From Chiloscyllium plagiosum (Eukaryota): a stretch of 64,000 nucleotides of DNA. Below the pieces are notes generated by a model. The model was given only the letters and a program-made list of their open reading frames with translations, was not told the origin of the DNA and searched no databases. Shown here in pieces: positions 17,369 to 54,394 of this stretch (positions are counted from its first letter, which is position 1; the number at the start of each line of letters is the position of its first letter). The stretch lies in assembly GCF_004010195.1 (NCBI RefSeq), contig NC_057753.1, positions 12,514,415 to 12,578,414 on the forward strand. Direction: 5' to 3'. Position numbers and translations under genes: made by a program.

Positions 17369-18270
17369 TCAACATTTAAAGTGACCGATGATTGAAGCGA
17401 AGGGACACATTAAAATCTTTTTGATCTCTTCTCGGAATGTGGTCTGGGATAGTGCATAAATGAAGACGTTATTGCAGGAACTGAATAACGTGAGCATAAT
17501 GGCCACCTCTTGAAGAATGTACTGTGGGTCACTGAAATTCAGGCCCGTGAAGTAACCTGCACCTGAAACACGCACATAAAGGAAACGTCCGACGTAGGTA
17601 GCCCACAGAAGTAGGAAACTGAGAGAAATGGCGAAAAGCAGGAATATGGACCTCCTGCGGTTGGTCATCTCCTGATCTCGCTGAGTGTCAGCACCACGGA
17701 GCCTCTTGCGGGCTCTGCTGGAAGCTAAGATGTGTCGTATGGTAATGGCGTTGAGCAACAGAATAAGGAAGAACGGGAGAAAGGGGGTTAAGATCTGTTC
17801 TAACATGTCATATACTTGCCAGAGTGGCGCGGTATAATAGCTGGACTTTATGTCACAGAACCAGGACACCCCGTCCAGGACGTACAGGGGTTGGGAGTAA
17901 AAATAAAAAGGGATATTCTTGAGACTGCACAGGGCACAGACAATTCCTATGACCAGCAATGCAGTCTTCTCAGTGCAGTATCTGATCTTCAGGCTCTGGC
18001 AACTGATGGCGATGGAACGGTCGATGGTGAAGGCAACTGTCAACCAGACAGACGCATCTCGAACAGCAAAGATGATCGTGATAATCAACCTGCAGGCGGG
18101 CGTCGTGGAAAGGGCACTGTACCGAAAGTAGATGCCGCTGATTCTGTTGATAATGACTGCAAAAATTATCACGACGAAGTCAGTCAGCGCTATTGCAAGC
18201 AGGTAGTAGGTGATGCACCTAGACAGTCCACATCGTCCTCTTGATAGGATTATTATCGACACCATGTTTG
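17369..18270 (-). CDS. GPR139/GPR142-like class A GPCR, paralogue 1, exon 2 (spliced product 323 aa)
   Basis: Polypyrimidine-CAG acceptor at 18273-18271; open frame ANMVSIIILSRGRCGLS...AFTIDRSIAI...WFC...SSCNNVFIY to TGA; hydrophobic TM pattern. Confidence 0.92.
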
Positions 18271-18359
18271 CTGACAACGACAAAAAAAAAACTGTGATAA
18301 AAAGTTGGTATGTTGGGCTCAAACTGCAGCTACCGATTTATCTGGGTATCTCTAACTTC

Positions 18360-18495
18360 GTGGAGAAAGTGAGGTCTGCAGATGCTGGAGATCAAAGTTG
18401 AAACTTTATTGCTGGAACAGCACAGCAGGTCAGGCAGCATCCAGGGAACAGGAGATTCGACGTTTCGGGCACAGGCCCTTCTTCAGGAATGAGCA
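18360..18495 (-). mobile_element. Penelope-like terminal-repeat fragment
   Basis: Same repeat as the end of the Penelope element at ~41800-41920, also at 39435-39685 and 63085-63210. Confidence 0.75.
18454..18490 (-). ncRNA. Minimal hammerhead ribozyme motif
   Basis: ATTC-CTGAAGA-A-GGGC-CTGT-GCCC-GAAA-CG-TC-GAAT: core boxes, stem II, palindromic ACGT stem III and 4-bp stem I. Confidence 0.6.
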
Positions 18496-19109
18496 GAGAG
18501 TGCATTACTTATGGAAGTAACAAGATGGCAAATCATTGTGTTACCCCAGATCTTAATGCCTCCTTCAGTAGCGGTTTCGGCTTTAGCTCACAACTGCAAT
18601 TCTCTTCCTCAGTGGTGCTGACTCTGTCCCTCCTATGTTAGGGCATTCCTTATAGTATAAATCATCAATCAAAGTTTGGGCAATTAGCTCTTTATGTCGT
18701 TCCATATTAAATTTGCTTGTTAAAGCTGCTGTAAGACTTCAGAGTGTGTAAACTAGAGATGTTAAATGACTGTTAAAGTTTTCAGTTATGGCACATCCTG
18801 ATATTACAGAAACCCTATCACCAGAACACAGAACTAAAAGATCTTAATTATTAACTCGCCATTAAAACAAAATCCACGTTGGGACTGCTCGAAGGGAACT
18901 CGCTACACAGTCATCCCTGCACTCTCCCGAATGTTGCACTGCAAACTGTATAATCAACAAAAGTGTTTCTATATTTCAATGCATCTAACAGAATGATTGG
19001 TTGCAAAGGTTTACCCTCTGATACTGTTCTGATATTGTTGCATAAGGGCACTTTTATACCACATGGTGAAAACACTAGAATTTCCATTTTGCAAAGATAA
19101 AATAAAACT

Positions 19110-20065
19110 TAGACATTAATAGAATAAAGAACAGAAAGCAACTTCACAGGAACAGGGCCTTCGGCCCTCTTAGCCATTGCCAATCCAGACTTGCTGCATA
19201 TTTTCTATGGGTCTGTATCCCTTCGTTCCCGGCTTATTCTTGTATCTGGCTGGATACATCATAAATAACGCTATCATGCCCGCCTCTACCACCTCCGCTG
19301 GAAACACGTTCCAGGCACCCACTACACTCTGCACAAAGAAGTTTCCAAGCACATCTCCACTAAACTTTTCTCCTCTCACTTTGAACTCGTAACTCATAGT
19401 AATTGAGACCCCCACTTTGGGGGAAAAAAGGTTCTTGTTATCCTTCCTAGCTATACCTTATGATTTTTTCGACCTCAATCACAGTCCTGCTCAACATCCG
19501 CCTTTCTAATTAAAATAATTCAAATCTACTCAACCTCTCTTCATAATTAGCGTCCTCCATTTCTGGCAACATCCTAGTTAACCTCCTCTGCACTCTGTCC
19601 ATAGCATATAAATTATTTTGGTAATGTAGTGACCAGAAGTGCGCAATATTCCAAATGTGCCAGAAACAAAGCCATATACAAGAGTAACATGACCTGCCAG
19701 CTCTTTCACTCAGTTTCCGGTCTGATGAAGGAAAGCATACCGTAAGGCTTCTTGACCAATCTATTGACTTGCGTTGCCACGTTCGGGAACACTGGTCCTG
19801 AGCACCCAGGTTTCTCTGTACATCAACTTTCCACAGCACGCTTCCTTTTTCTGTTAGTTCGATCTTGAATTGGATCTTCCAAAATGCATCACTGCACACT
19901 TGTCCAGACTGAACTCCATCTACCATTTATCTGCCCTACTTGGCAATCTGACCATATTCTGCTGTATTCTATGACAGTCCACTTTAATATTGACTATCCC
20001 ACCAATGTTCGTGTCTTCTGCAAACTTCCTATTCAGACCACCTATACCTTCCTCCAAATCATTAA
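19110..20065 (-). mobile_element. CR1 LINE 3' portion inside the GPCR paralogue 1 intron
   Basis: RVQRRLTRMLPEMEDANYEERLSR; FKVRGEKFSGDVLGNFFVQSVVGAWN. Confidence 0.88.
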
Positions 20066-20343
20066 CAGATCACGCAATGCCACAGAAAGCTGTATCTGTC
20101 AGAAATTTAAATAATAGAATTCCATAACTGTCATCTCTTATCACACTATACCACAAATATAAGCTAAGGACTTTAATGATTTTAAGAGCATTGCAATACC
20201 ACATCATCCTGACATGTATGTCTCATTCTGTTTAAGTCCTTTGCACTGAGAAAACACTGAATGTTAAATAAATTCAGTTGTACACCAAAACGGACGGAAT
20301 TGTTTTCTCTTAATGAATAACTCTAATGTGAATGATTACATAC

Positions 20344-20413
20344 CAGGGACACCAACAATAGCAATAATTGGATAACAGATTGAAAAGAAGAAGCCGTTGG
20401 GTGGCCCGTGCAT
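20344..20413 (-). CDS. GPR139-like paralogue 1, coding exon 1
   Basis: ATG 20413, MHGPPNGFFFSICYPIIAIVGVP + G|GTATGT; 70 nt, phase 1, joins exon 2 in frame; homologous to exon 1 of the other two paralogues. Confidence 0.9.
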
Positions 20414-20484
20414 CTTGTTTAACAAAATAAAGCAAAAATTATATTTTAGCACACTATTTCTTCCAGAAGTTTGAGTCAACCGTC

Positions 20485-20521
20485 ATTTATACCTTGTGAG
20501 AATCTCCAGAGAAATAATTAA
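20485..20521 (-). promoter_or_regulatory. Conserved promoter block: homeodomain + O/E(EBF)-like site and TATA box
   Basis: TTAATTATTTCTCTGGAGATT (20521-20501) then TATAAAT (20491-20485); same block and spacing upstream of all three GPCRs. Confidence 0.7.
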
Positions 20522-21309
20522 GTTCTGACATGCGCCTTACTTACACTTCAGTGAACGAACAGATTATCTCAGCTGTTTTGCATCATCAACGTGAATGATT
20601 CTCTTATATTTGGAGGTGAACAGCTGGCTGCCTTCCCCGTTTTCACAAAATATGCCTTGGCGACTCCATCAAGTACAATCGAAGGTAGTAGATACTGAGC
20701 TCATGTCCTTTGATGTAAAATAAAATGACCCTCTCTGCCCAATTATTTTGTGCTCTTCGGAGTCAGATTATTGTATGTATTTTGTTCATTGGGAAGGAGT
20801 TTAGCTGAGATTGCTTTCATGTTATGCAAGTGTTTGAACAGAACATCCCCAGCAAGAGTTGCTGAAAAGTAATCTCCAGATACTAGAATTTCACGAGCAT
20901 GAATCTTTGAAAATTAATCTGCAGATACAGCAGGCAATGAGAAACACAAATTGAATTTTCGCATTTACTGCAAAAGGAATGGAATATAAAAGTGCTAAAG
21001 TGTTGCTACAACTATACGAAAGCCTTCTTGAGACGTCAGCTGGGGTAATTCGTAAAATTGTTATCTCTTTAAGTGAAAAGTTATGGCATATTGGAGGCAG
21101 TTCTGCGGAGATTCACTGGATTGATTCCAGACATTCTAGTTGATATTATGGAAAGGGAAGTCTTCTGAAGTTTAAATATAATGAAAGGTAACTCCACATG
21201 CGTGGAAGTTTACAGTTCCAAATTCCAGTCCACAAACACTATAGCAAATTCCAGTCCACAAACACTTCAATTAAGAAGGTCAACGGGATCAGATATATTG
21301 GAATTTACG

Positions 21310-21660
21310 GACAGGCGATGACTTAGTGATATTACCATTAAACTGTTAATTCAGAGATCCAGGCAATTTTCATTGGACCAAGGTCCGAATCCCATTGCGA
21401 CAGTTGTTATAAGTTGAATTCAATTAAAAAAATCTGGAATTAGGAGAATAATGATGACTATGAACACATTGTTGGTTGTCAGAAGAAAAACCTGCTGCAC
21501 AAATGCCCCTTACAGAAGGAACGACCATTCTTACCTGGGCTGTCCAAATGTGATTCCAGAACTAAAGCAATGTGCTTGACTCTTTGCTACTCCTCTGAGC
21601 AATTAGTGATGAGCATTAAGTGCTAGTCTAGCCATAGATTCTCACATTCTGTGAATTAAT
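21310..21660 (+). mobile_element. Old SINE (Deu/SacSINE-like)
   Basis: Decayed tRNA-like head with B-box-like GGTCCGAATCCC; body similar to 1045-1285. Confidence 0.45.
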
Positions 21661-21674
21661 ATCAGTATCAATAT

Positions 21675-21675
21675 C

Positions 21676-21735
<60 letters not shown>

Positions 21736-21738
21736 TAT
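21675..21738 (+). repeat. (AAT)n microsatellite
   Basis: Seen directly. Confidence 0.97.
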
Positions 21739-22029
21739 AACGATGCAAAAACACGAACACCTGGAAGTTCCCTTCCTAGCTCTGCCCTGACTTGGAAGAA
21801 CATTGTCGTTCCCTCAGCGTCGCTCGATTAAAGTCCTGCAGTTCAAGTCTTAGGAGCTTTGTGGGTCTGCCAGTCACTGAGGGACTGCGGCAGTTCAAGA
21901 ATGCAGCTGGATTCGATAAAACTACGTTCCTCCTCAAGGAATGGCGACAAAAATTATCGCAATCCTTCAGGAGTTGCCTCAGAAATGCATTGTACAATTC
22001 AATGCGGGCAACTCTTATGATCTAATGAA

Positions 22030-22700: not shown

Positions 22701-22914
22701 TCCAAGTGCTGGAATGTGTGCGCAGAATAGTAAGGTCATTAGTTTTGAGAGGCACAATGTTCAAGAGGAGAAAAAAGAAAAAAACATTATACAGAACATA
22801 TCAATATTGTTGCTGAGGGGTGTAGTATTCAATTGTGAAGATTACAACTTATTAACGAGGGCAATGACCTGAAAAGTTTGGACGGGTGATTGATTAGAAC
22901 AGACAGCACTGCAA

Positions 22915-23190
22915 TGAGGGTGGCACGGTGCTTCAGTGGTCGGCGCTGTAGCTTGACAGTACCAGGAGGCTGGGCACGATTCTTGTCTCCGGTGACCTTC
23001 TGTTAGGTGTTTGCGTGGGATTTCTCTCACAGTCCGAAAATGCGCAGGTCAGGTGAATTGGCAATGCTAAATTGCCCCTAGTGCATTGTGCATTAGTCAG
23101 TGTGCAATGGGTCTGGGTGGGGTTCTTTTTTTGGAACGGTTGTTGGGCCAAATGGCCTCTTTCCACCCAGTAGGGAATCTACTCTAACTC
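22915..23190 (+). mobile_element. HE1-like tRNA-derived SINE
   Basis: GGCACGGTG-CTTCAGTGGT A-box head; GTCAGGTGAATTGGC body; CR1-like tail. Confidence 0.8.
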
Positions 23191-25828
23191 AAGATTTCCC
23201 ATTTATGAGAGATGTGCTTTCAACATCTAAGCCCTGGTCCCACTCAATGCAAGTATTTTGCCCATCAATATGTCCGTTCCCTTTACCATTTGTCCACGGG
23301 AACTCCACGCCACTCAGTCATAATTTCAATTAAAATTACCCTTTTGCAAAAGCGGACAGTTCACAGGTGAACAGTCCCAACTGAAAAATTCAAACCTGCG
23401 ACATTCGAGTGCAAATCTCAACGTTTATAAATTTCTAATGAAAGATTTCTGATTCACTTGAAGCCGAGAGGACATTGATTTCCCGATTTGCGGTAACGAG
23501 AATCCTTTCAATGTCTCACATTTGTGAATGTACTGAGAACTTTAGTGTCAATGTCCTAGCCTTAAAGAAATCGAAACTGCGTAAAACGGCTGTGCTCATT
23601 CAGATAGTTTACCTTTTATACTCGTCTGATTCCGGTACCCAAAGAATTTCCAAAGAGTCACACAGCTCGGGGCTGTTTTTTTTATTTTTCTTTCTTTCAA
23701 ATTCCCAGAACTGTAATGATTTGACTGGTATGTTTTAAGTATTGAAAGTTGCATATTCTGCAATTATTCTAAAAAATGTTTTATTTAATCAGTACTATAA
23801 TACAGCCTCCCTTTAACTTGCTCCCCAATATTTTCCAAACACATTGTATCATTGAGTAGGAGCTGTTGAGTGCTGATCATTTCAAATCCACAACGGCGTT
23901 ATTTACTTGTTATATTCGCATGCAGCTATTTGTCCTTGTACATCAAACACATTCGCCAAAGTGCGTATTTACATGCCTTTTGAGACACAACATTCGAATT
24001 CTCCACCTTTGGATTTTCAGTTTGACCTGCGGTTGCATGTCCATAAACCTTTGCGACAGACTAAGTTGTTCATGCTGTACTGTTTGTAAAAAACGCAGCC
24101 CTCGGCTTTATTAACGTGTACACGACGTATTAAAGCAAGAAATTTATGCAGAATCTTTATCACTCCGTGGTCATCCATAAATTGAAATCCGGATGTTCCG
24201 TTCTGAATATCTGAACTGGGACAAGTTTTGAGAATTTGAAGATCGTCAAAAAAATCCTGGCACATTACCAGAGTTGAGGGTTTTCAATTCTGTTAAGAAA
24301 CTGGCGAAGCCAGTATCATTGTCTTCATAAACAGAACGGATTAATTAGTCATTTTACGGAGGTGTTGAAATGTTTGATGAACATTTCTTTGCACAGGAGA
24401 AACAATTTAGATAGTTGTATCTCTCCCTTCTCCACCCAGTAGAGGTATGAAATGACGTGGTTAACTGACCTGGTGAACGTCGGGCCACATGTACACTCCA
24501 AGACTTCAGATAATCTGCAACCTTCTAGGTATTTCAAAGATACAGAGTCCTGGCCAAAAGATAGCTCCAGCGGCAGCTTAGCCCCTCATTGACTCCCATG
24601 GATCAGATGTGCAGCCACTTGTTCAGACCTCCAAACTCATTGTATATTTCTGTAGCCCAAACCGGCCGTCAAACCTAGGTATCGAAAGGAAAGCTTGCCA
24701 CACAGCAATCTCAAACCAAGGGAAACAAGCATTACTTTTTCTGAATTTTTCCCCTACTATAGATGTCAGCAGTTGTAAATTTCGTTTAAAGGGTATTCAA
24801 ATGATTTTGTGCCCGGAAGTATGAATCAAGCATCACCTAAAAACTGGACAAAATGGCTCGTTTCGCCAAAACTTGTATAGTAATCAGATTTTGAATACAA
24901 ACGTCGAAACTTACATAGTGCCCACTTGCCATGTAAAATTTCTCCTTCGTGTTCTTTTTGAAATTCTTTATCAAAATCTTTAACCTGTGTCTGCACTTAT
25001 TTTGCTGTCAGCTAATTGGAAGGTTCTTTTTGTTTATCAACCTAACTTAAACTGAGTATAAACTGGTTCACCTCAATCTATTCGTACGTCAACCCATGTT
25101 CTATCTCACCACTTTGCTATTAGAATTCCTCATCAGTTAAACTATTCGCGTAAGTCTCCTCTGCATCCTCTCAAGGACCATCACATCCATCAGAACGTGT
25201 AGTGTTTACTGGTTTTCGTGCAATATAATCACGCACCAATGATTACACAGCGACTTCACCTGCTCCAGTATTTTCTCAAGCGAGAGCTGATCTACTGTCT
25301 GCAGGTTTCTGCATCTTCCCATTGGAAGTTCCTGCAGAACACTCTAAATTAAAAGCAGTGAAAACATTTCAGTGTTGGACTTTTTCAACATTTAGCTGCA
25401 ATTTCGAACTTTTAGTATGTGCTTGTTATCTGTGAGAAATTGCATAATCTGGGGCTGACGAGACACATTTACTCTGCGTCTGAATCAACGTCCATCCAAT
25501 TCTCGGTTTCACAGAAGTCCACATTCCTCTTCTCCCTGTTATTGTATAACATCCTCCATTCAAGTAAGCATTGCATTTTAGCTCTGTTGCCTGTGTTACA
25601 GTTACTTCTGGCAACCGTAACAAATTAAGTTCAAACCAAGGTCAATCGCTTGACCACGTACTGCTGACTTAACAATTTTAACACCTTTCAGAATGGTTAA
25701 TGGCAAGAAATTGTTTTCACTGCACCACTATTAAATTCTGCTCTGCATGTGCCGCATGCATTCAGTTCATAATTCATAACTTGGTTTTGTGATTTTTGAG
25801 TTTTCTGTCTCTCACCCTTTTCACAGGA

Positions 25829-26640: not shown

Positions 26641-26641
26641 T

Positions 26642-28255: not shown

Positions 28256-28899
28256 CATTTATCACAGCTGCTGAGTCAAGATAAAGTTCACAACTAACCA
28301 GAGTGATTGAAGTTTCATATTTATCCCATCCAGGAGTGAGTTATGTTTATTGTGCTCTGTTTCTGATGACGTTATCGTACACCAACTCAAATTTGCATTA
28401 ACATTTTATTGACACGTCAAAGAAACCAGCTTTATTAAATAGAGTGCATGGTAAAACACAGTGCATGCCATTCTTCTTTCATATAATACCAGACGTTCTC
28501 TCTCAAATTTTCCCCTATTTTTAACAGGTGTGATGAGATCATGGAGCTTCTTTGTCGCTGAGATTAAGACAATCAGATCAACTGCTTCTCTTGTTTCCAT
28601 CCTTTACTCGTCCCTGGGTCAAGCTGCTTCAAAATGTGCTCGTTGCCTGAGCTCTGAACTCACATATCTTGCTAGTTTCTGTCATTTACCCTCATATTCA
28701 CATGACGTTTGTCTTGTCCGTGGGGTCAACCTTATGTTCTATTGACGTTATTCTCACGAAACAAGAGACAAGTTCATGATCATCCAATAAAAATCTTCAT
28801 GAGTTTAAACATTCCACTCAGTGTATTTAAATAAATAAGCCTTTTTGAACCATGGAGTCAGCAAATTTTGTTTGTTGATATTGACATTTTAGTCAGGTG

Positions 28900-29905
28900 T
28901 GTTCAATGCAGTGCTGGGCCCTCTACTTTTTGTCATTTACATAAATTATTTGGATGCGAGCATAAGAGGTACAGTTAGTAAGTTTGCAGATGACACCAAA
29001 ATTGGAGGTGTAGTGGATAGCAAAGAGGGTTACATCAGATTACAACAGCAACTGGACCATATGGGCTAATGGGCAGAGAAGTGGCAGATGGAGTTTAATT
29101 CAGATAAATGCGAGGTGCTGCATTTTGGGAAAGCAAATCTTAGCAGGACGTATACACTTAATGGTAAGGTCCTGGGAGTGTTGCTGAACAAAACGACCTT
29201 GTAGTGCAGGTGCATAGCTCCTTGAAAGTGGAGTCGCAGGTAGATAGGATAGTGAAGAAGGCGTTTGGTATGCTTTCCTTTATTGGTCAGAGTATTGAGT
29301 ACAGGAGTTGGGAGGTCATGTTGCGGCTGTACAGGACATTGGTTAGGCCACTGTTGGAATATTGCGTGCAATTCTGGTCTCCTTCTTATTGGAAAGATGT
29401 TGTGAAACTTGAAAGGGTTCAGGAAAGATTGACAAGGATGTTGCCAGGGTTGGTGGATCTCAGCTACAGGGAGAGGCTGAACAGGCTGGGGCTGTTTTCC
29501 CTGGAGCGTTGGACGCTGAGGGGTGACCTTATAGATGTTTACAAAATTATGCGGGGCATGGATAGGATAAATAGACAAAGTCTTTTCCCTGGGGTCGGGA
29601 GGCCTTAACTAGAGGGCATAGGTTTAGGGTGAGAAGGGAAAGATATAAAAGAGACCTAAGGGGCAACCTTTTTCACGCAGAGGGTGGTACATGTATGGAA
29701 TGAGCTACCAGAGGAAGTGGTTGAGGCTGGTACAATTGCAACATTTAAGAGGCATTTGGGTGGGTATATGAATAGGAAGGGTTTGGAGGGATATGGGCCG
29801 GGCACTGGCAGGTGGGACTAGATTGAGTTGGAATATCTGGTGGGCATGGACGAGTTGGACCGAAGGGTCTGTTTCCATGCTGTACATCTCTATGACTCTA
29901 TGACT
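28900..29905 (+). mobile_element. Young 5'-truncated CR1 LINE
   Basis: KFADDTKIGG ... LEYCVQFWSP ... RGDLIDVYKIMRG; (ATGACTCT)n tail. Confidence 0.93.
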
Positions 29906-31121
29906 CAGTGCAAGAACTTTTCAAACACTATGTAAATACAAACTTTAGAAACTTTTTGTGTTATACAGTTCACATTCTTGTCGATACTTTATTCTATTGT
30001 TGCTACACTTCCAGAAATAAAAACCTGAAATAAGCCTCTCGCTGCTCTTTACTTCCAATTTGTTTGGTTAATCCAATTTGATTTGCTGATTTTATTTTTG
30101 TTTGAAACGAATTGTCTGTTCATTATACATTAAATTCACTTGCATAATATCGTCATCCTATCTCTCTTTTCAATAACATAGTGTGTCCAGTACTCGAACA
30201 CAAGATGGAACAGCATGAGAGTCCTACAAATACTTGATGATATATGGGCTATGAAGTGAAGATTGAGTTTATTTAAAAAAAATAAATCCACCTAAGCATT
30301 GCATAAGATTGTAATGGTCTGAAGGATTACAGGAAGCCAAGAAGTGAGTTAAGCAGTCCTCAACAACGCAATGCCACATGAACTGGGTCAGTGAAAAACT
30401 GGTATTGATCTCAAAAGGCGAAGCCCGGAAATTGATGTTTCCCTCAGTGGAACATTGTAAATTGTAATACAGCACGGAGAATTTCGTCAACTTATCATTC
30501 TCAAAAAGGCAATATTTTAGCTTCTCCCCTCCATTGGGCAGCTCAGAGAGGGACATTGAAAAGTCATGAGAATCCATAGCAACCTTGCGGGTTGTCTCTT
30601 ATAAAGAAAGATCAAAATGTTCCGTTTTTTTTTTGTTTGAAACTGAGTGCAGTGAGTTGAAGTCCAGAAACAATGCACATCAAATAATCTATTTTCCTGT
30701 TTTGTTACAACCCCGAACCATATAGTAAACTCTTTCAGGCGATTTTCTGAGATCATGGAACATTTTATATTCCATGATTTCAGATCAATAAAATATATTA
30801 GATTCTTCAGTGTTTGGGGTAGGTGTGGATTAACGTTTTGGTCGGCATATAAGAGATTGGGAGGAAAGATCTGTCTCCGCGCTGTCGGAAATGATGACAC
30901 TGAATCTATGAAGCTCGATGATGCTGTCGCAGCATGAAGGTTATTTTTTCGATAATTCAGCTTTCCTTCATATTGCAAAGAGGGAAATAGGTCTTACGTT
31001 TCTTAGTACAGAAGCTGCAGCACATAGTTTGTTCGTGGGATTGAGAGGTTGAAATACTGCTGCCCATTGAGTCAGATTTGTGGGATTGAAATAACTCCGA
31101 AACACTTCACTGTTTTATTAT

Positions 31122-32023
31122 TCATTGCTGAAAACGATCAGTAAGCCTGGTAAAGGGATACACCAGCACCTTCTTCAATTCCTCACGGAACTTGTTCTGG
31201 GACACAACGTAAATAAAGAAATTGTTGCAGGAACTGAGTAACTGAAGCATGTTGGTCGTCTCTTGAAGAATATACTGCTGGTTACTGAAACCCAAGCTTG
31301 ATACGTATTCATCACCAGTAACCATTCTGTACAGGAAACGCGCAAAATATGTCGCCCAGAGGAGCAGGAAGCTGAGAGAGATTGCAAAGAGAAGAATTAT
31401 TGACCTCTTGCGATTGGCCATTTCTGTGTCTTCGCTATTTTCAGCACCCAGTAGCCTCTTACGGGCTCTGCTTGCCACTAAGATATGTCTTACATTCAAG
31501 ACATTTAACAAAAGAATGATAAGGAATGGGAGAAAAGGGGCTAAGATGCGATCAAGCCAGTAGTATGTCTGCCAGGCAGGAGACTTGTGGAAGATCGGTT
31601 TGATATCACAAAACCAGGGCACACCATCCAGAATGTACAAAGGCTGGTAGATGAAGTAGAATGGGATGTTCTTGCAGCAGCTCAGAGCATATATCACTCC
31701 GATAATCACTGAAGCACTTTTCTCAGTGCAGTACTTAGTCTTCAGACTCTGGCAGCAAATAGCTACAAAACGGTCAATGGTGAAGGCCACGGTAAGCCAA
31801 ACCGAGCAATCCCGCGTGGCATAGACGAGCGCAGCATTGAGGCAGCATGCAGGAGTTGTGGACAATACACTGAAGCTGAAGTAAATGCGGCTGATGCGGT
31901 TGAGGATGCACCCAGTGATGATGACAAGGAAATCAGCTACCGCTATGGCGACCAGGTAGTAGGTGACACATCGGGAAAGGCCGCAATGTCTTTGCGATAG
32001 TATTACAATGGCCAGCAAGTTGG
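31122..32023 (-). CDS. GPR139/GPR142-like GPCR, paralogue 2, exon 2 (spliced product 323 aa)
   Basis: CAG acceptor at 32026-32024; ANLLAIVILSQRHCGLS...AFTIDRFVAI...WFC...SSCNNFFIY; open to TGA. Confidence 0.92.
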
Positions 32024-32279
32024 CTGTGATAGATAAAAGAACAACAATGTTACCAAGGGTCTCCAAAAATGAGTTCCCACCTGATCCTCAGATTTCCTTA
32101 AACTTTTCGGTTTAATCACGTTTCCATCTTCAAGCTGTCTGCTCCACTTGGTGGTTCAATTTCCAAAGCTCAAGTAAGCATTTACCTATAAAATATGTGA
32201 ACACTTTCTTTCGACATCTTGAATTCCACTTCCTGGTCTTCAGTCAATTTCAGTGGCCAGCTATCTAATTCGAGGCAAG

Positions 32280-34310: not shown

Positions 34311-34380
34311 CAGGAGCACCTATTATAGCGAGAATTGGATAGCAAACAGCATAGAACAGGCCTTTCGCTGGTCCGTGCAT
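34311..34380 (-). CDS. GPR139-like paralogue 2, coding exon 1
   Basis: ATG 34380, MHGPAKGLFYAVCYPILAIIGAP + G|GTATGA; 70 nt, phase 1. Confidence 0.9.
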
Positions 34381-34439
34381 CCTATCTGAGAAGCTCAAGC
34401 TGCAGCCCTCACCTCTGTGGCATATCCAACGTGTCTCTT

Positions 34440-34476
34440 ATTTATTTGACATGACAGTCTCTAGAGGATGAATTAA
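34440..34476 (-). promoter_or_regulatory. Conserved promoter block: homeodomain + O/E-like site and TATA-like box
   Basis: TTAATTCATCCTCTAGAGACT (34476-34456) then AATAAAT (34446-34440). Confidence 0.65.
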
Positions 34477-35439
34477 ACCTCATCATGCATCTCAGTTGCA
34501 AATCAGTAAACAAACAAATTATCTCAAGTTTTAATGTCGTTCATTTTAATCATCGGGATGGCGTGTGGCTCAGTGTCATTTTGTCAGCTCACTGCTGGCT
34601 GGAAATTCCTTGCATCGAAACCCTCCTTTTAGTTTTAATGGAGTGGAGTTGCTAATATTCGACGCTGAGTGGATATTCTATCTCTAATCTAAACTTAACA
34701 TTTTCTAAGACTAGCATATTCTAAGCAATTTTGTTCTTTTGTTTGTTATATTTGTGAATGTCATTGTCAGAGATTTAAATTCTCATAAATTACTGTTGCC
34801 TCAGACTTGTCACAGATACAAAATTAATCTGTACGGCGTCACTAATACCTTACAAGAAAAGAAACGTGGGTGTCCACCCTCACATGCTAACTGTGGGAAA
34901 TGTGCAAGCGTTTCAGTTTTACTGGTCAAGTAGAAAGACAGGAAGGAGCTTCAAAAAGGCATCGCCTGTTCACCAGATATCCCATGGCACCAGGTCAACT
35001 CACTGCAAGGAAAGTTCCTGACTCACCCTGTTACGTGATGAACTAGTGCTCCTCTGTTTTGGACATGAGTTATTGGATGAGCTGAAAATGTCAAAAGCAC
35101 ACAAAACACTTTGTCTGGGGAACCCCAACATTCCACAAGATGTGGTTTGGAAACCCCTCCACTAATCGAGCTAGTTGAATCTTAGCTGTGTGTCGTGGTA
35201 AAACTAACTGGAGGGATAAAATTATACGTGTTTGTAAACTCAGAAATCTTCTCAACATTTGTCCATAACGGCACTGGCCATATCCTTATGGCAATGAAAT
35301 CCCAGCTTTAAATCGAGAATTCCCTCCATTGCGTTGTGTAACATTGTAACAGTGACAAACAGGATAGATTTCGAACAGATCAACCGATTCAAGAAGTGGC
35401 ATCAATGTAGCAAAACGGGCAACGTGGCAACACTATCCG

Positions 35440-40263: not shown

Positions 40264-40357
40264 CTGGAAAACATGATCCGAAGTGAACAAAATCAACATA
40301 AAGAAGATTGTAATAAGAATTAAATGAAGTATCTGGGAATACAGTAGAAACAAGCAA

Positions 40358-40444
<87 letters not shown>

Positions 40445-40700
40445 NNNNNNNNNNNNNNNNNNNNNNNNNNNNNNNNNNNNNNNNNNNNNNNNNNNNNNNN
40501 NNNNNNNNNNNNNNNNNNNNNNNNNNNNNNNNNNNNNNNNNNNNNNNNNNNNNNNNNNNNNNNNNNNNNNNNNNNNNNNNNNNNNNNNNNNNNNNNNNNN
40601 NNNNNNNNNNNNNNNNNNNNNNNNNNNNNNNNNNNNNNNTCTATCTATCTGTCTATCTATCTGTCTATCTATTTGTCTGTATGTCTATCTATCTATCAAT
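40358..40700 (+). repeat. (TATC)n microsatellite spanning a 195-N assembly gap (40445-40639)
   Basis: Seen directly. Confidence 0.97.
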
Positions 40701-40899
40701 ATATTTATCTATCCCTCCATATGTCCATGTATCCGTGTATCCATCTATTTTTCCATCTTTTGCTTCTTTTACATATCTTTTTTGCGTGGCAGAACCCAAC
40801 AGAAAACGACGGGACAGAGGGAGGGGGAAATGTATGCTGCGAACATTCGAAATATAGCTCTGGCTGCCAGAGGACAAAGAAAGGTGCTAAGAAACCGTG

Positions 40900-41640
40900 G
40901 AGCAGAATCTAGAACAAAAAAATGGAGAGATAGAGAAAATCAAGAGAGAACAATAGGCAGAGAGAGGACAAAAATCAGAAACAGAAGTATGGAGACAGTG
41001 AACGTCGTGGCGACGGGGCAGATAAATTAATTGATATTAAGATAGAGAACAAAACACGGAGACAAGGAGAACGAAAGTGTAAAATGAAAGAAGAGAAAAC
41101 TGACATAGAAACAGAGGGAAAATCGTGAATGGAGTAAAGACAGAATGTAGCATTCAAAGAGACAGAATGGGAGAATACGTGGACAGAGGAAGACTGAGTC
41201 CGATAGATAGACAGGAAGGGAGAAACAGAAAAGTAGAGGAAGATAGAATGGGAGAGAAACAGACAGAAAAAGACAACGATCCAACGAGAAGAAGGGAATA
41301 AAAGGTGAAATTAAGGGACGTTTTACATCTGATTAAAGGAGATTGTGCAACAGCAAAATGGATAGCCATTGAGAGAAAAAGCATGATAGACATCGATGTG
41401 GAATTCAATTGGACTAAAGGGAACAAGAGAGAGAGAGCCCGAAAAGAGATAATGAGGCTGAAGTAAAGGACAGGAGCAGAATCAGAAAAGCAGACAGAAA
41501 ATGAAATTGAGGCAGTTATCAGATAAACACGAATAAAGAGAGTGTCGATGCAAAGAAACACTCTGAAAATGGAGAGAAATGCAACTGAAATAACATGAAA
41601 ATTAGGACAGAAATGAGTGTATATGGAGAAGGATCGACTG
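40900..41640 (+). repeat. GA-rich low-complexity tract
   Basis: Purine-rich decayed AGAG/AGAC repeats. Confidence 0.7.
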
Positions 41641-45970: not shown

Positions 45971-46073
45971 TTACATTGCTGTTTTAAAACAGCACAAATT
46001 GCTGGAAAGTTTATTATTTGTAGGCTTGCTTTCATCCTGCTCCCAGACCCTTCACCATTCCTCATTACAGAAG

Positions 46074-47910: not shown

Positions 47911-48239
47911 AGAGTTCAGAGTGGACTTGATTATCCCAATAGCCTGCTTCCAAACTGTAGTGATCCTATATCCTGCCACGCTGTGTTCAAATGACCATGT
48001 TTGTGGGGCCCAGTGCACAGTGATATCGCTGAGATAATGATAGAGACCCAACAATATTTAAATTAACCACTTTCTTGTCTTGATAAAAATAACATGGTCA
48101 GAGAAATCTGATGAATTTTACCCTTTACTCGAGTCAAATCTCTTTAGTAAATATGAGAAAGTAGTCTGGGAAAGTATTTAATTAGGGGAGGGAAAATTAT
48201 ACTGCAAAAAAAAACATGAGTTGTGAAGTTTCAATAGGG

Positions 48240-50330: not shown

Positions 50331-52441
50331 AAATATCCTGGCGTTTGGTCGCAAAAGTGAATGCACTAAAAGAGAAGTTCAACAAAATATTTTGTAATAT
50401 AATGACTATTCATCGTTATGGCCTATGCTTCTTCAGTTACTAATTCTGGTGGCTCTTGGATGAGTAATTATCGGCCAATCGTTCCTTTAAAAACGCATGA
50501 ATGCATGAAACATATATTTGTGAATATAACCTAAGAATCACACATTGAACACTTCAGCTCCCATCGCTGAGCAGCATAATCTTCCGTAGTGGCAAATTAT
50601 GGAGATTGCACATGGTTTCCAATTCCGTTGTAAATAGTTCATTAAATTTTTTTTTCTAGTCTTCCTTTGCAGATCCGACGCAAGTTCCAATTATTAGGAA
50701 AAACAAATATAGTCATTTCTCTGTGCTGGGATTTGCCAGTCTCTTTCAGCTAGCAACATCTATGCACGAATAACTATTCCATGATGAACAAATGCAGGAA
50801 TCTGATGAAGAAGTTATGCTTGAAAAGTCAATCCTCCTGCTCCTTCGACGCTGCCTGACCAGCTGCACTTTTCCGGCATCCCACTCTTGACAAACATTTT
50901 TAAAAAATGACAGACATCAATACATGATGACTGACGCTGCTGATTTTAATTGCCACGGACCTCTGAACCAGTCCTCGAATAATCCATTCACTTACATTGT
51001 GCCTGGTTGTCTCTGAGAGTCTATGGATGCATCCTTGGGCATGTGTCTCCATCTCCTATTTATTTTCTGTATCACTTCCAACCATCTAACATTAATCTAT
51101 CACGTCTGTTGGTTTCTCTGTGTTTCTGTCATAGCTGTCTTCACCTCTGATGACATTTCTTTATCGTTATCTGAGTTTCAACTTCATTCCATCTTCCTGT
51201 TATGTTCTTGGTGTATCAATGCATTGAGCTTCACTTTGATTTGAGGGATCATAATTTAACAAAGATTGGCTACAGACAGAAACTTTATTCTTAAGGATGC
51301 AGAAACAATATGACAGAGCTGGATATATACATTGAATGACTACAGAGAAGTAATCATAGAGTTCTTTTCATTATTTATGCATGGGATTGCCTGCGTTGTT
51401 TGTTTCTTTTGCTTATTCATGCAGTAGAATGGCAACTGCATTACTGTCGATCTGGTGTCACGTAGAAGCTTCAACAGACCAGGGAGGACGTCAGTTTGCG
51501 TCTCTCAAGAAGTGTAGCCAACTAGATGGTTTTTCTTTCCCGGCTACTAAATATGTGGTCATCATTTATTCCCAATATTAGACTTTATTTTCTCATTTAT
51601 ATTCCACCATGGCAAGGTTAGAATCCTCATTCCTAGAACATACCTGGCCCTTTCAACAAATTATCCATTCATCATACCACGTTGTAGCCACTATGAAGGT
51701 GGAACTGATATGAATTATGTCAGGGAGCCTGACAGGTCTTTTGGAAATTACGTAAAATTGATGCGAGAAAAAAAAAAGAACCCGAGGTTCTTTATTTTGA
51801 GAGGACACTTTGTGGTGCCACATGGGTTGTTGTGTGAGGCGGAATTATTGGGATGGCTGGCGTAGCCACTTTTGAGGCACAAATTAACTCTGTAACAAGA
51901 TAAACGGCAACAAAGTGAAGAACGAGTAAAACGAAAAAGGTGAGAATCTTTAACACAAGTCAACTGTGAAACTGAGGAATTGCTTATCAAAGATTGAAGC
52001 CAATGTATGTCAAAAAGGTTGGTGCTTTGGTTTAATGATAGTGATCGGCTCAATACGTGTGAAGTAACTGAGAGCCAACTTTTCTTCTCATGCTTTCACA
52101 AAATTTCCACCGACAGTAACGCGGGGGGATCAGAAAGCCCAAGTAGGGAGAGTGAGGAATAAATAAACAAATGTCATCTGGACGAGACTAATGGAGAGTA
52201 GCCGCAGTAAGGGGATGTGGGAGGGTGAACACAGATTACAATTGCGCTTCTTTTTGAGTAATACAAAATTGCAATCGTTGTGCATTCTCTTAAGGATCGA
52301 CTACAGTCAATTATCAGAGCTGCCAATAGGCTTTCTATTCCTTTGGTACTGGCACTAACTTTCCATAAATTTCTGTATCAGGGGATAACGGGCCCAGTAT
52401 ACACTGAACTACTCTAGTGGAAAAGAAAGAGCATGAGAGAT

Positions 52442-53352
52442 TTATTCCACTCTGCGTTTAAAGAAATTGGTGAGGGTGGCGAAGGGGTACATCAAAAAGT
52501 TCATTAACTCCTTTCTAAACAAATTCTGAGATATTGCATAAATGAAGACGTTGTTGCAGGAACTGAATAACTGAAGTGTGTTGGTCGTTTCTTGGAAGAT
52601 ATACTGTGGGTCACTGAAATCTAATCCACCGAAGTAGCTCTCTGCTTTAAGCCGCATGTAGATGAAATGTCCGACAAGAGGGGCCCACAGGAGGAGGAAG
52701 CTGAGAGAGATGGCGAACAGTAGGATGATGGATCTCTTGCGGTGGGCCATCTCCGGGTCTTGTTGCTTCTCTGCACCTCGGAGCCTCCTTCGGGCTCTGT
52801 TAGCCACTAGGATCTGTCTTATGGTCAGGACGTTCAGCATCAGAATAACGAAAAATGGGAGGAAAGGGGTATAAATCTGAAAGAGCCAATCATAAGCCTG
52901 CCAAGCTGGCCAGACGTAGAAGTTGGCTTTGATGTTGCAAAACCACGATACCCCATCTAAGATGTATAAGGGTTCGTAGATAAAGTAGTATGGAATATTC
53001 TTGACGCAGCATAGAGCACATACAATTCCAATGACCAGAGACGCCGTTTTCTCTGTACAGTATCTGGTCTTCAACTTCTGGCAGCAGATGGCCACGAAAC
53101 GGTCGATGGTAAAGGCGACTGTTAGCCAGACCGAACAATCCCGCGTGGCATAGACCAGTACGACGCTGAGAGTGCACACAGGAGTGGTCGACAAGACACT
53201 TTCCCGGAAATAGATGCGGCTGATTCGATTGAGGATTACTGCGGTGATGATGACAAAGAAATCAGTCACTGCGATAGCCACCAGGTAGGAGGTGATGCAC
53301 CGGGATAGATTGCACCGTCCTCGAGATAGAATTATGATTGCCAACAAATTGG
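52442..53352 (-). CDS. GPR139/GPR142-like GPCR, paralogue 3, exon 2 (spliced product 326 aa)
   Basis: CAG acceptor at 53355-53353; ANLLAIIILSRGRCNLS...AFTIDRFVAI...WFC...SSCNNVFIY; open to TAA. Confidence 0.92.
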
Positions 53353-54324
53353 CTGTGAGAGATCAAAAGAGAAAGTTATTACTGAACTTAGTCAAAACAC
53401 TGTCTGCTGCCTTTTTCAATCTTTTATGTAACAGCTTTAAAACACCGGTTTTCCACTTTCAGTCTCTGCCTATCCTGAAACCATTGACAAGCATTGGACA
53501 TTCAATACAGCACTATATATCTCTCAATGTAAATAGTCCCAGGAATAGATATTGTTCGCTCGTTACTGAGTAAACTCCAGTAGCTACTGTCCAATTCAGG
53601 ATAAATGGAATAATGTGGTCCCGATGAACGTATTCATACCAAACCCCGGACATGCTTCAACCCATAAATGTTTCCTCACGTTGCCTTTTCACTAGTGGTG
53701 TCCCACCCATTACAAATCTCATCATTCGAATCTTCAGAAGCTCCAGAGTCTTGCTACGTCCATTCCCGCAATCATACACAACTCTTTGTAATTACAAGTT
53801 AACTTTGATTGTGCCTCCCGTGTATGCCTAAAATTGATATTTCTAACGGTGTCAGTTATAGGTTTACATAATAAAGCTCTAAACTCTGAAATTATTACCG
53901 CAGATCTTCGCTTCTATTCCCTTCTTTCAGACGTTCCTTTGATCGACCCTTTTTTGCAATATCTCATATCTCACAAAATTGCATTAATTTACTAAAGCTG
54001 TTCTAGTGTTTGCTATGGGCGGTGTTGTGGCTCGAGATCATGTGTACTTTCTAATAATTATGAAGAATGTTGTTCTGGCCAATTATTCCAAAAAAGTATC
54101 TAGAGCATTCAGGAACGTATTTTTCATTCATACTTAAGAAATTGTCAGTACTGAACGATGATATGACACAGCACAGATAGCATCCCGTCATACGCACTGA
54201 ACGTCATTTGATGTCTATTAATGTTGCATATTGGAAAAGTTCAGCTATATCCTGAATAGGAAAGGAATGCATTTCAGGAAACACAGAATAAAAAATATAC
54301 TTTTCATGTGAATCAGTGACTTAC

Positions 54325-54394
54325 CAGGGGCGCCAATACCAGCGAGAATTGAATAGGAAACGACGAAGAAGGGGGCAATGACTGGTTCGTGCAT
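54325..54394 (-). CDS. GPR139-like paralogue 3, coding exon 1
   Basis: ATG 54394, MHEPVIAPFFVVSYSILAGIGAP + G|GTAAGT; 70 nt, phase 1. Confidence 0.9.

What the first reader, a model, noticed from the sequence alone, without database searches (positions are those of the whole stretch)
17369..54394. Tandem, intact, pocket-diversified GPR139-like receptors look like a chemosensory repertoire
Seen: three intact co-oriented genes with identical architecture (70-nt exon 1, phase-1 intron within TM1) and a very short N-terminus. Cytoplasm-facing motifs are nearly fixed (SVWLTVAFTIDR, YCTEK, FAISLSFLLLW, SSCNNxFIY). Outer TM3, ECL2/TM5 and TM6 differ strongly (CRLIITIIF / CCLNAALVY / CTLSVVLVY; YDMLEQ / YYWLDR / YDWLFQ; TYVGRF / TYFARF / PLVGHF). 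Established: mammalian GPR139 and GPR142 are single-copy receptors activated by aromatic amino acids, amino acids are major odorants for fishes, and sharks have few canonical OR genes. Inference: a lineage-specific expansion tuned to diverse small ligands.
Basis: partly seen in the sequence, partly recalled or inferred. Interest (0 to 1): 0.8.

Follow-up and report, generated by a model that had tools for sequence, protein, structure and literature searches.

The report
Three genes, giant shark receptor family
These are three intact genes of a receptor family with at least about 550 copies in this shark's genome, related to but distinct from the brain receptor GPR139; the family would likely be an overlooked set of chemical sensors, but where the genes are switched on is unknown.

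Summary
The window carries three intact, co-oriented genes of 323, 323 and 326 aa. Each has a 70-nt first exon, a GT..AG phase-1 intron just before N1.50 of TM1, and a ~900-nt second exon.

They are not a small local expansion. A family motif occurs 546 times in the genome (control 0), and 58 of the 131 best hits lie on the window's 15.3-Mb contig. Named relatives come from sharks, rays and skates, all machine-named "probable GPR139".

True GPR139 and GPR142 are single genes elsewhere in this genome. They share the intron position and the missing Pro7.50. The family lacks their hallmark Arg6x51, keeps the TM3-ECL2 cysteines, and forms a separate clade. Its nearest outside kin are genes of salamanders, coelacanth and a teleost.

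"Pocket-diversified" is only partly right. Positions equivalent to GPR139's ligand contacts are hypervariable between subfamilies (2.92 vs 2.03 bits), but not within this trio's subfamily or among young duplicates.

A conserved promoter cassette sits about 100 nt upstream of each ATG.

Expression and ligands are untested, so "chemosensory" remains inference. I found no paper describing the family. This scan reported the same family before on other DNA (26 notes, at least 9 genomes).

The parts
17369..18270 (-). Gene 1, exon 2 (stop codon included); with exon 1 it encodes 323 aa
18271..20343 (-). Gene 1 intron (2073 nt, GT..AG, phase 1); holds a high-copy repeat around 18056-18719
20344..20413 (-). 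Gene 1, 70-nt coding exon 1 (MHGPPNGFFFSICYPIIAIVGVP + first base of Ala)
20483..20570 (-). Gene 1 conserved promoter block: GAGATAAT, TGTTCGTTCA, TTAATT-N4-CTCTGGAGA (20503-20521), TATAAAT
31122..32023 (-). Gene 2, exon 2 (stop included); with exon 1 it encodes 323 aa
32024..34310 (-). Gene 2 intron (2287 nt, GT..AG, phase 1)
34311..34380 (-). Gene 2, 70-nt coding exon 1 (MHGPAKGLFYAVCYPILAIIGAP)
34438..34525 (-). Gene 2 conserved promoter block (TTAATT-N4-CTCTAGAGA at 34458-34476; AATAAAT; TGTTTGTTTA; GAGATAAT)
52442..53352 (-). Gene 3, exon 2 (stop included); with exon 1 it encodes 326 aa
53353..54324 (-). Gene 3 intron (972 nt, GT..AG, phase 1)
54325..54394 (-). Gene 3, 70-nt coding exon 1 (MHEPVIAPFFVVSYSILAGIGAP)
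54464..54551 (-). Gene 3 conserved promoter block (TTAATT-N4-CCCTGGAGA at 54484-54502)

Best explanation
The window holds three intact, co-oriented two-exon genes of a class A receptor family that has at least 546 copies in this shark genome and is a separate sister lineage of GPR139/GPR142; the family likely works as a repertoire of sensors for diverse small ligands, a predicted and untested role with unknown tissue of expression. Shown: gene structure, intactness, family size, spread across sharks, rays and skates, kinship to GPR139/142, purifying selection, pocket diversity between subfamilies, and a conserved promoter cassette. Inferred: each receptor binds a ligand in the canonical transmembrane pocket. 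That pocket has a conserved polar floor in this subfamily (N2x61, R2x62, R3x36, D3.37, E7x35, N7x38). Different subfamilies would bind different ligands because the contact positions differ. The very short N-terminus (about 7 residues) argues for small ligands over large proteins. The receptors would be expressed in chemosensory cells (nose, barbels, taste buds or solitary cells).
For: Structure and intactness. AlphaFold model of gene 2 exon 2: pLDDT 82.5, pTM 0.80, 7TM fold with an ECL2 hairpin.

Family size:
- 131 of 131 scored genome hits have E <= 1.3e-91 and 53-100% identity. 107 of the 131 have no in-frame stop, and 58 of the 131 lie on contig C44 between 1.1 and 14.1 Mb.
- The motif V-W-[L/F]-T-V-A-F-T gives 546 matches against 0 for the reversed control. 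A shorter form of it catches 30 of 39 known family loci.
- A systematic sample of 20 motif places gave 20 of 20 family members, 10 of 20 with an unbroken exon 2.

Spread: all 120 listed homologues are elasmobranch proteins; the best is 95% identical, from Hemiscyllium.

Kinship to GPR139:
- GPR139 is the best solved structure by family profile, 70.7 bits against 52.8 for the next.
- True GPR139 of this genome has its acceptor at the same codon and phase.
- Searched with GPR139, the genome returns GPR139, GPR142 and then 120 hits at 23-35% identity, most starting at the first residue of exon 2. Those I checked are family members.
- 7x50 is not Pro in 57 of 59 family representatives, as in GPR139 (PMC8807744 passages).
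- In the trees, the family plus GPR139/142 split from 22 and from 10 other class A receptors with SH-aLRT 100.

Selection: among the three genes pS is 0.65-0.73 and dN/dS about 0.09-0.16.

Pocket diversity: in 59 representatives the 16 GPR139-contact equivalents have 2.92 bits against 2.03 for 82 other outer-half TM positions (p = 9e-5). The outer half has 2.33 bits against 1.28 for the cytoplasmic half (p = 6e-19).

Family architecture: a 70-nt exon 1 was found upstream of 17 of 20 sampled paralogues. The promoter cassette matches with <=3 mismatches in 12 of 19 promoters at -88 to -115, against 1 of 3400 control windows.

Context: the catshark is reported to have 2 OR and 6 OR-like genes and 3, 3 and 2 genes of three further families (PMC11979771 passage).
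Against: There are no expression data for any member (see Tried and rejected). In the catshark paper the 50 most specific 'brain & olfactory epithelium' genes held no GPCR (PMC11979771 passage). That is weak evidence, because receptors expressed one per cell are rare in bulk RNA.

Variation is not enriched at contact positions at the closer levels:
- Within the trio's own subfamily (86 sequences), contact-equivalent positions have 0.98 bits against 1.21 for other outer TM positions (p = 0.24).
- In 11 young paralogue pairs, contact positions have pN/pS 0.27 against 0.33 for the rest, with no excess of amino-acid changes (Fisher p = 0.64).
There is therefore no sign of ongoing diversifying selection on the pocket.

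The three genes are old and conserved (95% orthologue in another genus). That fits conserved endogenous ligands as well as it fits odorants.

The palindrome in the promoter differs at 2-3 of 8 specified positions from the Olf/EBF consensus as I recall it. The exact cassette is rare genome-wide: 46 matches against 10 control, and only 2 of the first 12 lie before an exon 1.
Confidence: 0.5

Rival explanations
1. The family serves internal signalling. Its members would be receptors of neurons, immune or endocrine cells for endogenous peptides or metabolites, expanded as MRGPR, chemokine or invertebrate neuropeptide receptors are, rather than detectors of external chemicals.
For: The nearest characterised relative, GPR139, is a brain receptor (PMC12208981 and PMC8807744 passages). 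Foldseek's best matches are peptide receptors: TRHR, NMUR2, ghrelin receptor and GPR15. The ECL2 beta-hairpin with the canonical disulfide is typical of peptide receptors. The old paralogues are conserved, with a 95% orthologue and dN/dS near 0.1. There is no pocket-focused change in young duplicates. No GPCR was among the top 50 olfactory-library genes in catshark (PMC11979771 passage).
Against: At least 546 loci with about half broken in an unbiased sample is a birth-and-death pattern on a scale known to me only from chemoreceptor families (the comparison is recalled). Contact positions are hypervariable between subfamilies. The N-terminus is about 7 residues with no ectodomain. I know of no matching expansion of ligand genes, and I did not search for one.
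Confidence: 0.3
2. The genes are redundant copies of a GPR139/GPR142-type sensor and all detect the same aromatic amino acids (L-Trp, L-Phe).
For: Shared ancestry with GPR139/142. Shared acidic 7x35, Asn 7x38, aromatic 3x33, Trp 6x48 and Leu 7x42 in this subfamily.
Against: Arg6x51 is reported to contact the ligand carboxylate and to be unique to GPR139/142 (PMC8807744 passages). It is Tyr, Tyr and Leu in the three genes and Arg in only 4 of 59 family representatives. The acidic 2x61, 3x29 and 3x32 of GPR139 are Asn, Ile/Ala/Val and Ile/Val/Val here. Identity to GPR139 is 23-35%. The three genes differ at 9 of 16 contact positions.
Confidence: 0.07
3. The expansion is largely neutral: copies spread by segmental duplication in repeat-rich DNA, and most have no distinct function.
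For: 10 of 20 systematically sampled loci are broken. The genes sit among LINE fragments and high-copy repeats. Young pairs show relaxed constraint, dN/dS 0.2-0.7.
Against: The three window genes kept open frames although their synonymous sites are saturated, with dN/dS near 0.1. Gene 2 has a 95% identical orthologue in another genus. The promoter block is conserved at a fixed distance from the ATG. D2.50, R3.50, W6.48, N7.49 and Y7.53 are nearly invariant in 59 representatives.
Confidence: 0.08

Closest known systems
GPR139 and GPR142 (vertebrate class A orphan receptors activated by L-Trp and L-Phe)
   Same: GPR139 is the best solved-structure match by family profile. The phase-1 intron lies in the Ala codon before N1.50 in both. 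Both have a non-Pro residue at 7x50, an acidic 7x35, Asn 7x38, aromatic 3x33 and an I/F-D-R motif in place of DRY. They form one clade against 22 and against 10 other class A receptors of the same genome.
   Different: Identity is only 23-35%. The family has no Arg6x51. It keeps Cys3.25 and Cys45.50, which GPR139/142 lack by alignment. Its ECL2 is longer and forms a hairpin. It has hundreds of copies against one each for GPR139 and GPR142. It is a separate clade.
Machine-named 'probable GPR139' genes of salamanders (Pleurodeles, Ambystoma, Lissotriton), coelacanth and a teleost (Odontesthes)
   Same: These are the nearest relatives outside elasmobranchs, at 31-33% identity. They fall in one starred clade with the family (SH-aLRT 98). 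The salamander gene sits at the unresolved base of the expanded clade (99). They share both disulfide cysteines and the non-Pro 7x50.
   Different: Each forms a small 90%-identity cluster of 1 to 5 proteins across up to three species, not a large family. The coelacanth and teleost genes keep Arg6x51 and the salamander gene has Lys. One divergent paralogue of this genome (L037) also keeps Arg. Copy number in those species was not counted here.
Trace amine-associated receptors (TAARs)
   Same: This is a functional analogy only, recalled; the abstract of PMC8890504 was seen in a search listing. TAARs are a class A family derived from internal receptors that expanded into an olfactory repertoire with compact genes in clusters.
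   Different: There is no sequence kinship beyond class A. TAAR expression in the nose is demonstrated, and for this family nothing is known. Catshark is reported to have few TAARs (PMC11979771 passage).
V2R/OlfC, the dominant known olfactory receptor family of sharks
   Same: Both are multigene receptor families of cartilaginous fishes that could detect amino-acid-like cues (titles and abstract starts of PMC6368271 and PMC10116579 seen in listings).
   Different: V2Rs are class C receptors with a large ectodomain and many exons, and catshark has a few dozen genes (recalled). This family is class A, has almost no N-terminus and is at least ten times larger in this genome.
Invertebrate myoinhibitory-peptide/sex-peptide and FMRFamide receptors
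   Same: A review treats GPR139 as their vertebrate counterpart (PMC12208981 passages). Some family members are machine-named 'sex peptide receptor-like' or 'FMRFamide receptor-like'. Nemertean and gastropod proteins form the third branch of the trichotomy with the family and GPR139/142.
   Different: Identity is 26-31%. Those are peptide receptors present in few copies (recalled).

Membership tests
Class A (rhodopsin-like) GPCR, Pfam PF00001 | Significant match to 7tm_1 above the curated cut-off | tested here: met
   E 1.4e-18, 2.1e-23 and 2.2e-20; 67.8-83.6 bits against a cut-off of 30.5
Class A (rhodopsin-like) GPCR, Pfam PF00001 | Seven-helix fold with D2.50, R3.50, W6.48, N7.49, Y7.53 and the TM3-ECL2 cysteines | tested here: met
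   AlphaFold model pLDDT 82.5, pTM 0.80. At least 500 PDB GPCR matches. These residues are present in 54-58 of 59 representatives and in all three genes. P7.50 is absent.
GPR139/GPR142 orthology group | Arg at 6x51 (stated to occur only in GPR139 and GPR142; PMC8807744 passages) | tested here: not met
   Tyr, Tyr and Leu in genes 1-3; Arg in 4 of 59 family representatives; Arg in this genome's GPR139 and GPR142
GPR139/GPR142 orthology group | Non-proline at 7x50 (Phe in GPR139) | tested here: met
   Val, Phe and Val in genes 1-3; non-Pro in 57 of 59 representatives
GPR139/GPR142 orthology group | Phase-1 intron in TM1 directly before N1.50 | tested here: met
   The acceptor ...cctag|CT AAC ATC of this genome's GPR139 lies at the same codon and phase as in genes 1-3. 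That this defines the group is my inference.
GPR139/GPR142 orthology group | Groups inside the GPR139+GPR142 clade; single or low copy; high conservation | tested here: not met
   GPR139 and GPR142 form their own clade (SH-aLRT 99) and the family forms another. Identity is 23-35%. There are at least 546 loci.
GPR139/GPR142 orthology group | Activation by L-Trp and L-Phe | not testable with these tools
   Needs a heterologous assay
Canonical vertebrate odorant receptors (Pfam 7tm_4) | Match to the OR-specific profile | tested here: not met
   No 7tm_4 hit at E <= 0.01 for any of the three
Chemosensory receptor repertoire (functional class) | Large multigene family in genomic clusters with many pseudogenes | tested here: met
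   546 motif sites; 58 of 131 best hits on one 15.3-Mb contig; 10 of 20 sampled loci broken
Chemosensory receptor repertoire (functional class) | Ligand-pocket positions more variable than the rest | tested here: inconclusive
   Met between subfamilies (2.92 vs 2.03 bits, p = 9e-5). Not met within the trio's subfamily (0.98 vs 1.21) or in young pairs.
Chemosensory receptor repertoire (functional class) | Expression in chemosensory cells, one or few receptors per cell | not testable with these tools
   No usable RNA data
Chemosensory receptor repertoire (functional class) | Response to external chemical cues | not testable with these tools
   Needs an experiment

The most novel reading that the evidence does not exclude
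Sharks, rays and skates carry a hitherto undescribed vertebrate chemoreceptor family of several hundred genes. It was born from a GPR139-like gene that stayed in few copies in bony vertebrates. It supplies the odorant or tastant diversity that their handful of OR, TAAR and V1R genes cannot, so the 'shark nose as a vomeronasal organ' picture would be incomplete.
Probability: 0.35. Interest if true: 0.9.

Novelty: new variant of a known kind. Interest (0 to 1): 0.68.

Why it matters
Cartilaginous fishes are famous for their sense of smell, yet their known olfactory receptor families are tiny. The catshark is reported to have 2 OR and 6 OR-like genes and 3, 3 and 2 genes of three further families (PMC11979771 passage).

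This family has at least about 550 class A receptor loci in one shark genome. It occurs across sharks, rays and skates and carries only automatic 'GPR139' labels. It is probably the largest GPCR family of these animals.

If the family is sensory, it changes the account of vertebrate chemoreceptor evolution and gives a concrete gene set to test. If it is internal, it is an unusual case of hundreds of conserved orphan receptors awaiting ligands.

It also shows that database counts of 'GPR139' in elasmobranchs are misleading. True GPR139 and GPR142 are single genes elsewhere in this genome.

Tried and rejected
RNA evidence:
- No RNA holder was listed for gene 3.
- Raw single-cell RNA reads of the same species label gave no read on any of the three genes' exons. 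Only repeats were hit, and only about 2% of X5 and 6% of X6 were read. The tissue is unknown, so this is no test.
- The supplementary expression tables of the catshark paper could not be read. They may hold tissue profiles of the catshark members.

Searches that did not discriminate:
- Foldseek against the PDB did not separate GPR139 (rank 9) from other peptide-type receptors.
- The protein atlas gave only generic class A clusters.

Selection analyses:
- Site-wise dN/dS on the trio was dropped because synonymous sites are saturated (pS 0.65-0.73).
- I used entropy and young pairs instead. The young pairs showed no pocket enrichment.

Promoter lead from earlier notes (an odorant-receptor-like promoter):
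- A conserved cassette is real.
- Its palindrome TCTCNNGAGA has 2-3 mismatches to the Olf/EBF consensus TCCCNNGGGA as I recall it.
- The exact cassette is rare genome-wide: 46 matches against 10 control, and only 2 of the first 12 lie before an exon 1.
- I therefore do not count it as evidence for olfactory expression. The consensus I scored was derived from the same promoters, which inflates.

Limits of the trees and sets:
- The outgroups were the 24 best PF00001 hits of this genome (22 used, 10), not the nearest peptide receptors. Sisterhood to GPR139/142 among all class A receptors is therefore not shown.
- Both trees are 'quick' (SH-aLRT only), and one search carried a long-branch warning.
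- Presence in chimaeras was not tested.

Literature: I found no paper describing the family in searches. The library lacks most subscription journals.

I used exon-2 references instead, so all searches and the fold lack the first 24 residues.

Full report
THE OBSERVATION. A stop-to-stop scan found three long open frames on the minus strand, at 17369-18337, 31122-32087 and 52442-53362. All three match Pfam 7tm_1 (E 1.4e-18 to 2.1e-23). Upstream of each lies an ATG-initiated 70-nt exon followed by GT (20413-20344, 34380-34311, 54394-54325). It was found by eye for gene 3 and by tblastn with that peptide for the other two (E 5.7e-4 and 0.027 against the window).

Each long frame is entered through a polypyrimidine-AG acceptor (exon 2 starts at 18270, 32023 and 53352). 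The last base of exon 1 plus two bases of exon 2 make an Ala codon directly before the Asn that is N1.50. The introns are 2073, 2287 and 972 nt. The spliced products are 323, 323 and 326 aa.

Public gene models agree with this splice: 71 of 120 named homologues begin with MH and put the Ala-Asn junction at residue 24. The window has no other copy or fragment.

IT IS A VERY LARGE FAMILY. The window is G000:C44:12514415-12578414 in a 3.56-Gb assembly. Searching the genome with exon 2 of gene 2 gave 8082 first-look candidates, of which 131 were scored. All 131 had E <= 1.3e-91 and 53-100% identity. 107 of them had no in-frame stop. 58 lie on C44 between 1.11 and 14.11 Mb; C44 is 15,332,846 bases long. 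Further members lie 6 kb before and 2.3 kb after the window.

To count beyond the scoring cap I used a motif. A 21-nt degenerate pattern for VWLTVAF hit 30 of 39 family loci then in hand. Its 23-nt form, which also admits Phe at the Leu codon, matched 546 places in the genome against 0 for the reversed control.

I fetched every fifth of the first 100 listed places, all on contigs C1-C17. All 20 were family members by profile (118-490 bits). 10 of the 20 had an unbroken exon 2. The family therefore has at least about 550 loci, with roughly half to four fifths intact depending on the sample.

Named homologues (the 120 listed of 1374 hits) are all from sharks, rays and skates. Nearly all are machine-named 'probable G-protein coupled receptor 139'. 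A few are named GPR142, GPR15-like, galanin receptor 2a-like, FMRFamide receptor-like or sex peptide receptor-like. The best is 95% identical, from Hemiscyllium ocellatum, so the window comes from a hemiscylliid (bamboo or epaulette) shark. Against one representative per 50%-identity cluster of public proteins, 103 clusters score E <= 1e-30.

RELATION TO GPR139/142. GPR139 is the best solved-structure match for gene 2 alone (E 1.5e-11). It is also the best for a profile of 86 family sequences (1e-18, 70.7 bits), ahead of the prolactin-releasing peptide receptor (52.8 bits). For that alignment I used the three window genes plus 83 of the 120 listed homologues, picked by eye mostly by length.

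I located this genome's true GPR139 with a short pattern taken from that alignment. There was one match, at C21:58.73 Mb. Its acceptor...cctag|CT AAC ATC, puts a phase-1 intron in the Ala codon before N-I-L. That is the same place and phase as in the three genes.

Searching the genome with that GPR139 returned itself, GPR142 (56% identity, contig C24) and then 120 hits at 23-35% identity (E 1.4e-15 to 6.9e-6). Most of these start at the first residue of exon 2. Those I checked are family members: 9 of the 10 fetched scored 101-442 bits against the family profile, and the tenth is another class A receptor.

The family profile scores GPR142 at 65.5 bits, GPR139 at 58.7 and 22 other class A receptors of this genome at 31 or less.

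In a quick maximum-likelihood tree of 52 rows, the family plus GPR139/142 split from 22 other class A receptors with SH-aLRT 100 (with a long-branch warning). I had dropped two outgroup rows, one holding X and one short.

In a second tree of 55 rows, three clades form an unresolved trichotomy apart from 10 outgroups:
- GPR139+GPR142 (SH-aLRT 99);
- an invertebrate and unnamed clade (99);
- a clade holding the shark family, a divergent paralogue (L037), coelacanth and teleost genes, and a salamander gene (98).
The salamander gene sits at the unresolved base of the expanded clade (99).

Membership in GPR139/142 proper fails on a defining feature. The structure paper states that Arg6x51 occurs only in GPR139 and GPR142 and is critical for ligand recognition (PMC8807744, passages read). 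The three genes have Tyr, Tyr and Leu there, and only 4 of 59 family representatives have Arg. L037, the coelacanth gene and the teleost gene keep Arg, and the salamander gene has Lys.

The family also keeps Cys3.25 and Cys45.50, which GPR139/142 lack by alignment. It has a longer ECL2, predicted as a beta-hairpin.

Shared with GPR139 are the non-Pro residue at 7x50 (57 of 59 representatives; the paper says 94% of class A receptors have Pro), an acidic 7x35, Asn 7x38 and an aromatic 3x33.

AGE AND SELECTION. The three genes are 62-68% identical in protein. Their pS is 0.65-0.73, so synonymous sites are saturated, and dN/dS is about 0.09-0.16. In the tree they are not each other's closest relatives. 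Gene 2 groups with copies at C44:13.67 and 13.81 Mb and one on C45 (SH-aLRT 95). This is an old array kept by purifying selection, not a recent tandem burst.

Of 1378 pairs among 53 intact paralogues, 29 have dS < 0.6, with dN/dS 0.17-0.73 (one pair at 1.29 on very few changes).

IS THE POCKET DIVERSIFIED? I took the ligand contacts of GPR139 from the paper: 2x57, 2x61, 2x62, 3x29, 3x32, 3x33, 3x36, 5x43, 6x48, 6x51, 6x54, 6x55, 6x58, 7x35, 7x38 and 7x42. ECL2 and 7x30 were left out as unalignable. I mapped the contacts through the conserved anchors and the alignment. There are three levels of comparison.

1. Within the trio's subfamily (86 sequences). The outer half is somewhat more variable than the cytoplasmic half (1.27 vs 0.88 bits, p = 8e-6). 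The 16 contact equivalents are not more variable than 82 other outer-half TM positions (0.98 vs 1.21 bits, p = 0.24). N2x61, R2x62, R3x36, W6x48, F6x55, E7x35, N7x38 and L7x42 are nearly fixed. The three genes differ at 9 of the 16 positions.

2. Across 59 representatives (52 cluster representatives, gene 2 and 6 distant paralogues of this genome). The contact equivalents are the most variable positions (2.92 vs 2.03 bits, p = 9e-5). The outer half has 2.33 bits against 1.28 for the cytoplasmic half (p = 6e-19). The structural motifs stay nearly invariant.

3. In 11 young pairs. Contact positions have pN/pS 0.27 against 0.33 elsewhere, with no excess of amino-acid changes (Fisher p = 0.64).

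The pocket is therefore diversified between subfamilies, deep in the family's history. It is not diversified among these three genes, and it is not under visible ongoing diversifying selection. Because I had no model coordinates, 'pocket' means GPR139-contact equivalents, not a measured cavity.

PROMOTER. Earlier notes of this scan gave the lead that family promoters resemble those of odorant receptors.

The 70-nt exon 1 (MHGPANG...) with a GT donor was found within 6 kb upstream of 17 of 20 further paralogues. Aligning 220 nt upstream of the ATG of 19 genes shows a conserved block. It reads GAGnTAAT, then TGTTTGTTYAC, then TTAATT-N4-CTCTGGAGA about 96-111 nt before the ATG in the closer paralogues, then an ATAAAT box about 25 nt further on.

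The TTAATT-N4-CTCTGGAGA element is matched with <=3 mismatches in 12 of 19 promoters, against 1 of 3400 random 90-nt windows of the same loci. The consensus came from these promoters, so this figure is inflated. Conservation across paralogues with saturated synonymous sites argues for a functional core promoter and a short 5' UTR.

Its reading as a homeodomain site plus an Olf/EBF site is only a resemblance. The palindrome is TCTCNNGAGA rather than TCCCNNGGGA (recalled consensus). The exact cassette is rare in the genome: 46 matches against 10 control, and 2 of the first 12 places precede an exon 1.

FUNCTION. Nothing here shows where the genes are expressed or what they bind.

Features that favour a chemosensory repertoire:
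- the scale of the family;
- its clustering;
- the pseudogene fraction;
- the compact genes;
- the near-absent N-terminus;
- the between-subfamily pocket diversity;
- the known poverty of OR, TAAR and V1R genes in sharks (PMC11979771 passages).

Features that favour internal signalling:
- descent from a brain-receptor lineage;
- the peptide-receptor-like ECL2;
- strong conservation of old paralogues;
- no pocket-focused change in young duplicates;
- no GPCR among the top olfactory-library genes in catshark (PMC11979771 passage).

I put the sensory reading at about one half.

LITERATURE. Eight full-text searches found no paper describing this expansion. A GPR139 review (PMC12208981, passages) mentions neither paralogues nor cartilaginous fishes. 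The searched library lacks most subscription journals, so 'undescribed' is provisional. The same family was reported by this scan before: 26 notes in at least 9 genomes, one on another piece of this genome.

Noticed in passing
G000:C21:58730750-58731679 (L031/L032) and G000:C24:44307599-44308375 (L033): These are the true single-copy GPR139 and GPR142 of this genome. GPR139 has the same phase-1 intron before N1.50 as the expanded family.
   Followed up: yes
L037 = G000:C98156:19814-23698: This is a divergent paralogue: 101 bits to the family profile and 35% identity to the coelacanth gene. It keeps Arg6x51 like GPR139/142 but has Ser at 6.48. It may be the shark counterpart of the coelacanth and teleost 'GPR139-like' gene.
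   Followed up: partly
window 52523-53250 (gene 3 exon 2), run X2: One DNA contig of another sample covers gene 3 with 29 differing letters and a 2-base deletion at 52645. 21 of the differences are packed into 52568-52665, which encodes the top of TM6, ECL3 and outer TM7. It could be a gene-conversion tract, a frameshifted allele or an assembly chimera.
   Followed up: no
window 2-892 (-) and 10956-11558 (-): These are LINE remnants: one open frame with a GDSL-like esterase domain (E 1.2e-11) and a reverse-transcriptase fragment (E 1.4e-17).
   Followed up: partly
window 18056-18719 (inside gene 1 intron), 22704-23367 and 28680-30007: Very high-copy repeats, judged by contig depth in DNA runs. 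They are the only places in the first laid stretch where single-cell RNA reads landed.
   Followed up: no
window 40317-41030, with an N run at 40445-40639: An assembly gap flanked by a hexamer-like microsatellite that reads (IYLS)n in three frames.
   Followed up: no
exon-2 residues 10-18 of all three genes (ICL1), e.g. window 31968-31994 (-): The first intracellular loop carries a nearly invariant R-G-R-C-G-L-S-R-C with two cysteines (C13 is invariant in 86 sequences). True GPR139 has no counterpart. Its role is unknown.
   Followed up: no
G000:C9:86.06-86.45 Mb, C7:115.75-115.93 Mb, C17:69.7-71.4 Mb: Young tandem sub-arrays of the family on large chromosomes, with identical 23-mers at the TM3 motif and pairwise dS 0.1-0.5. 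They are good material for site-model tests.
   Followed up: partly
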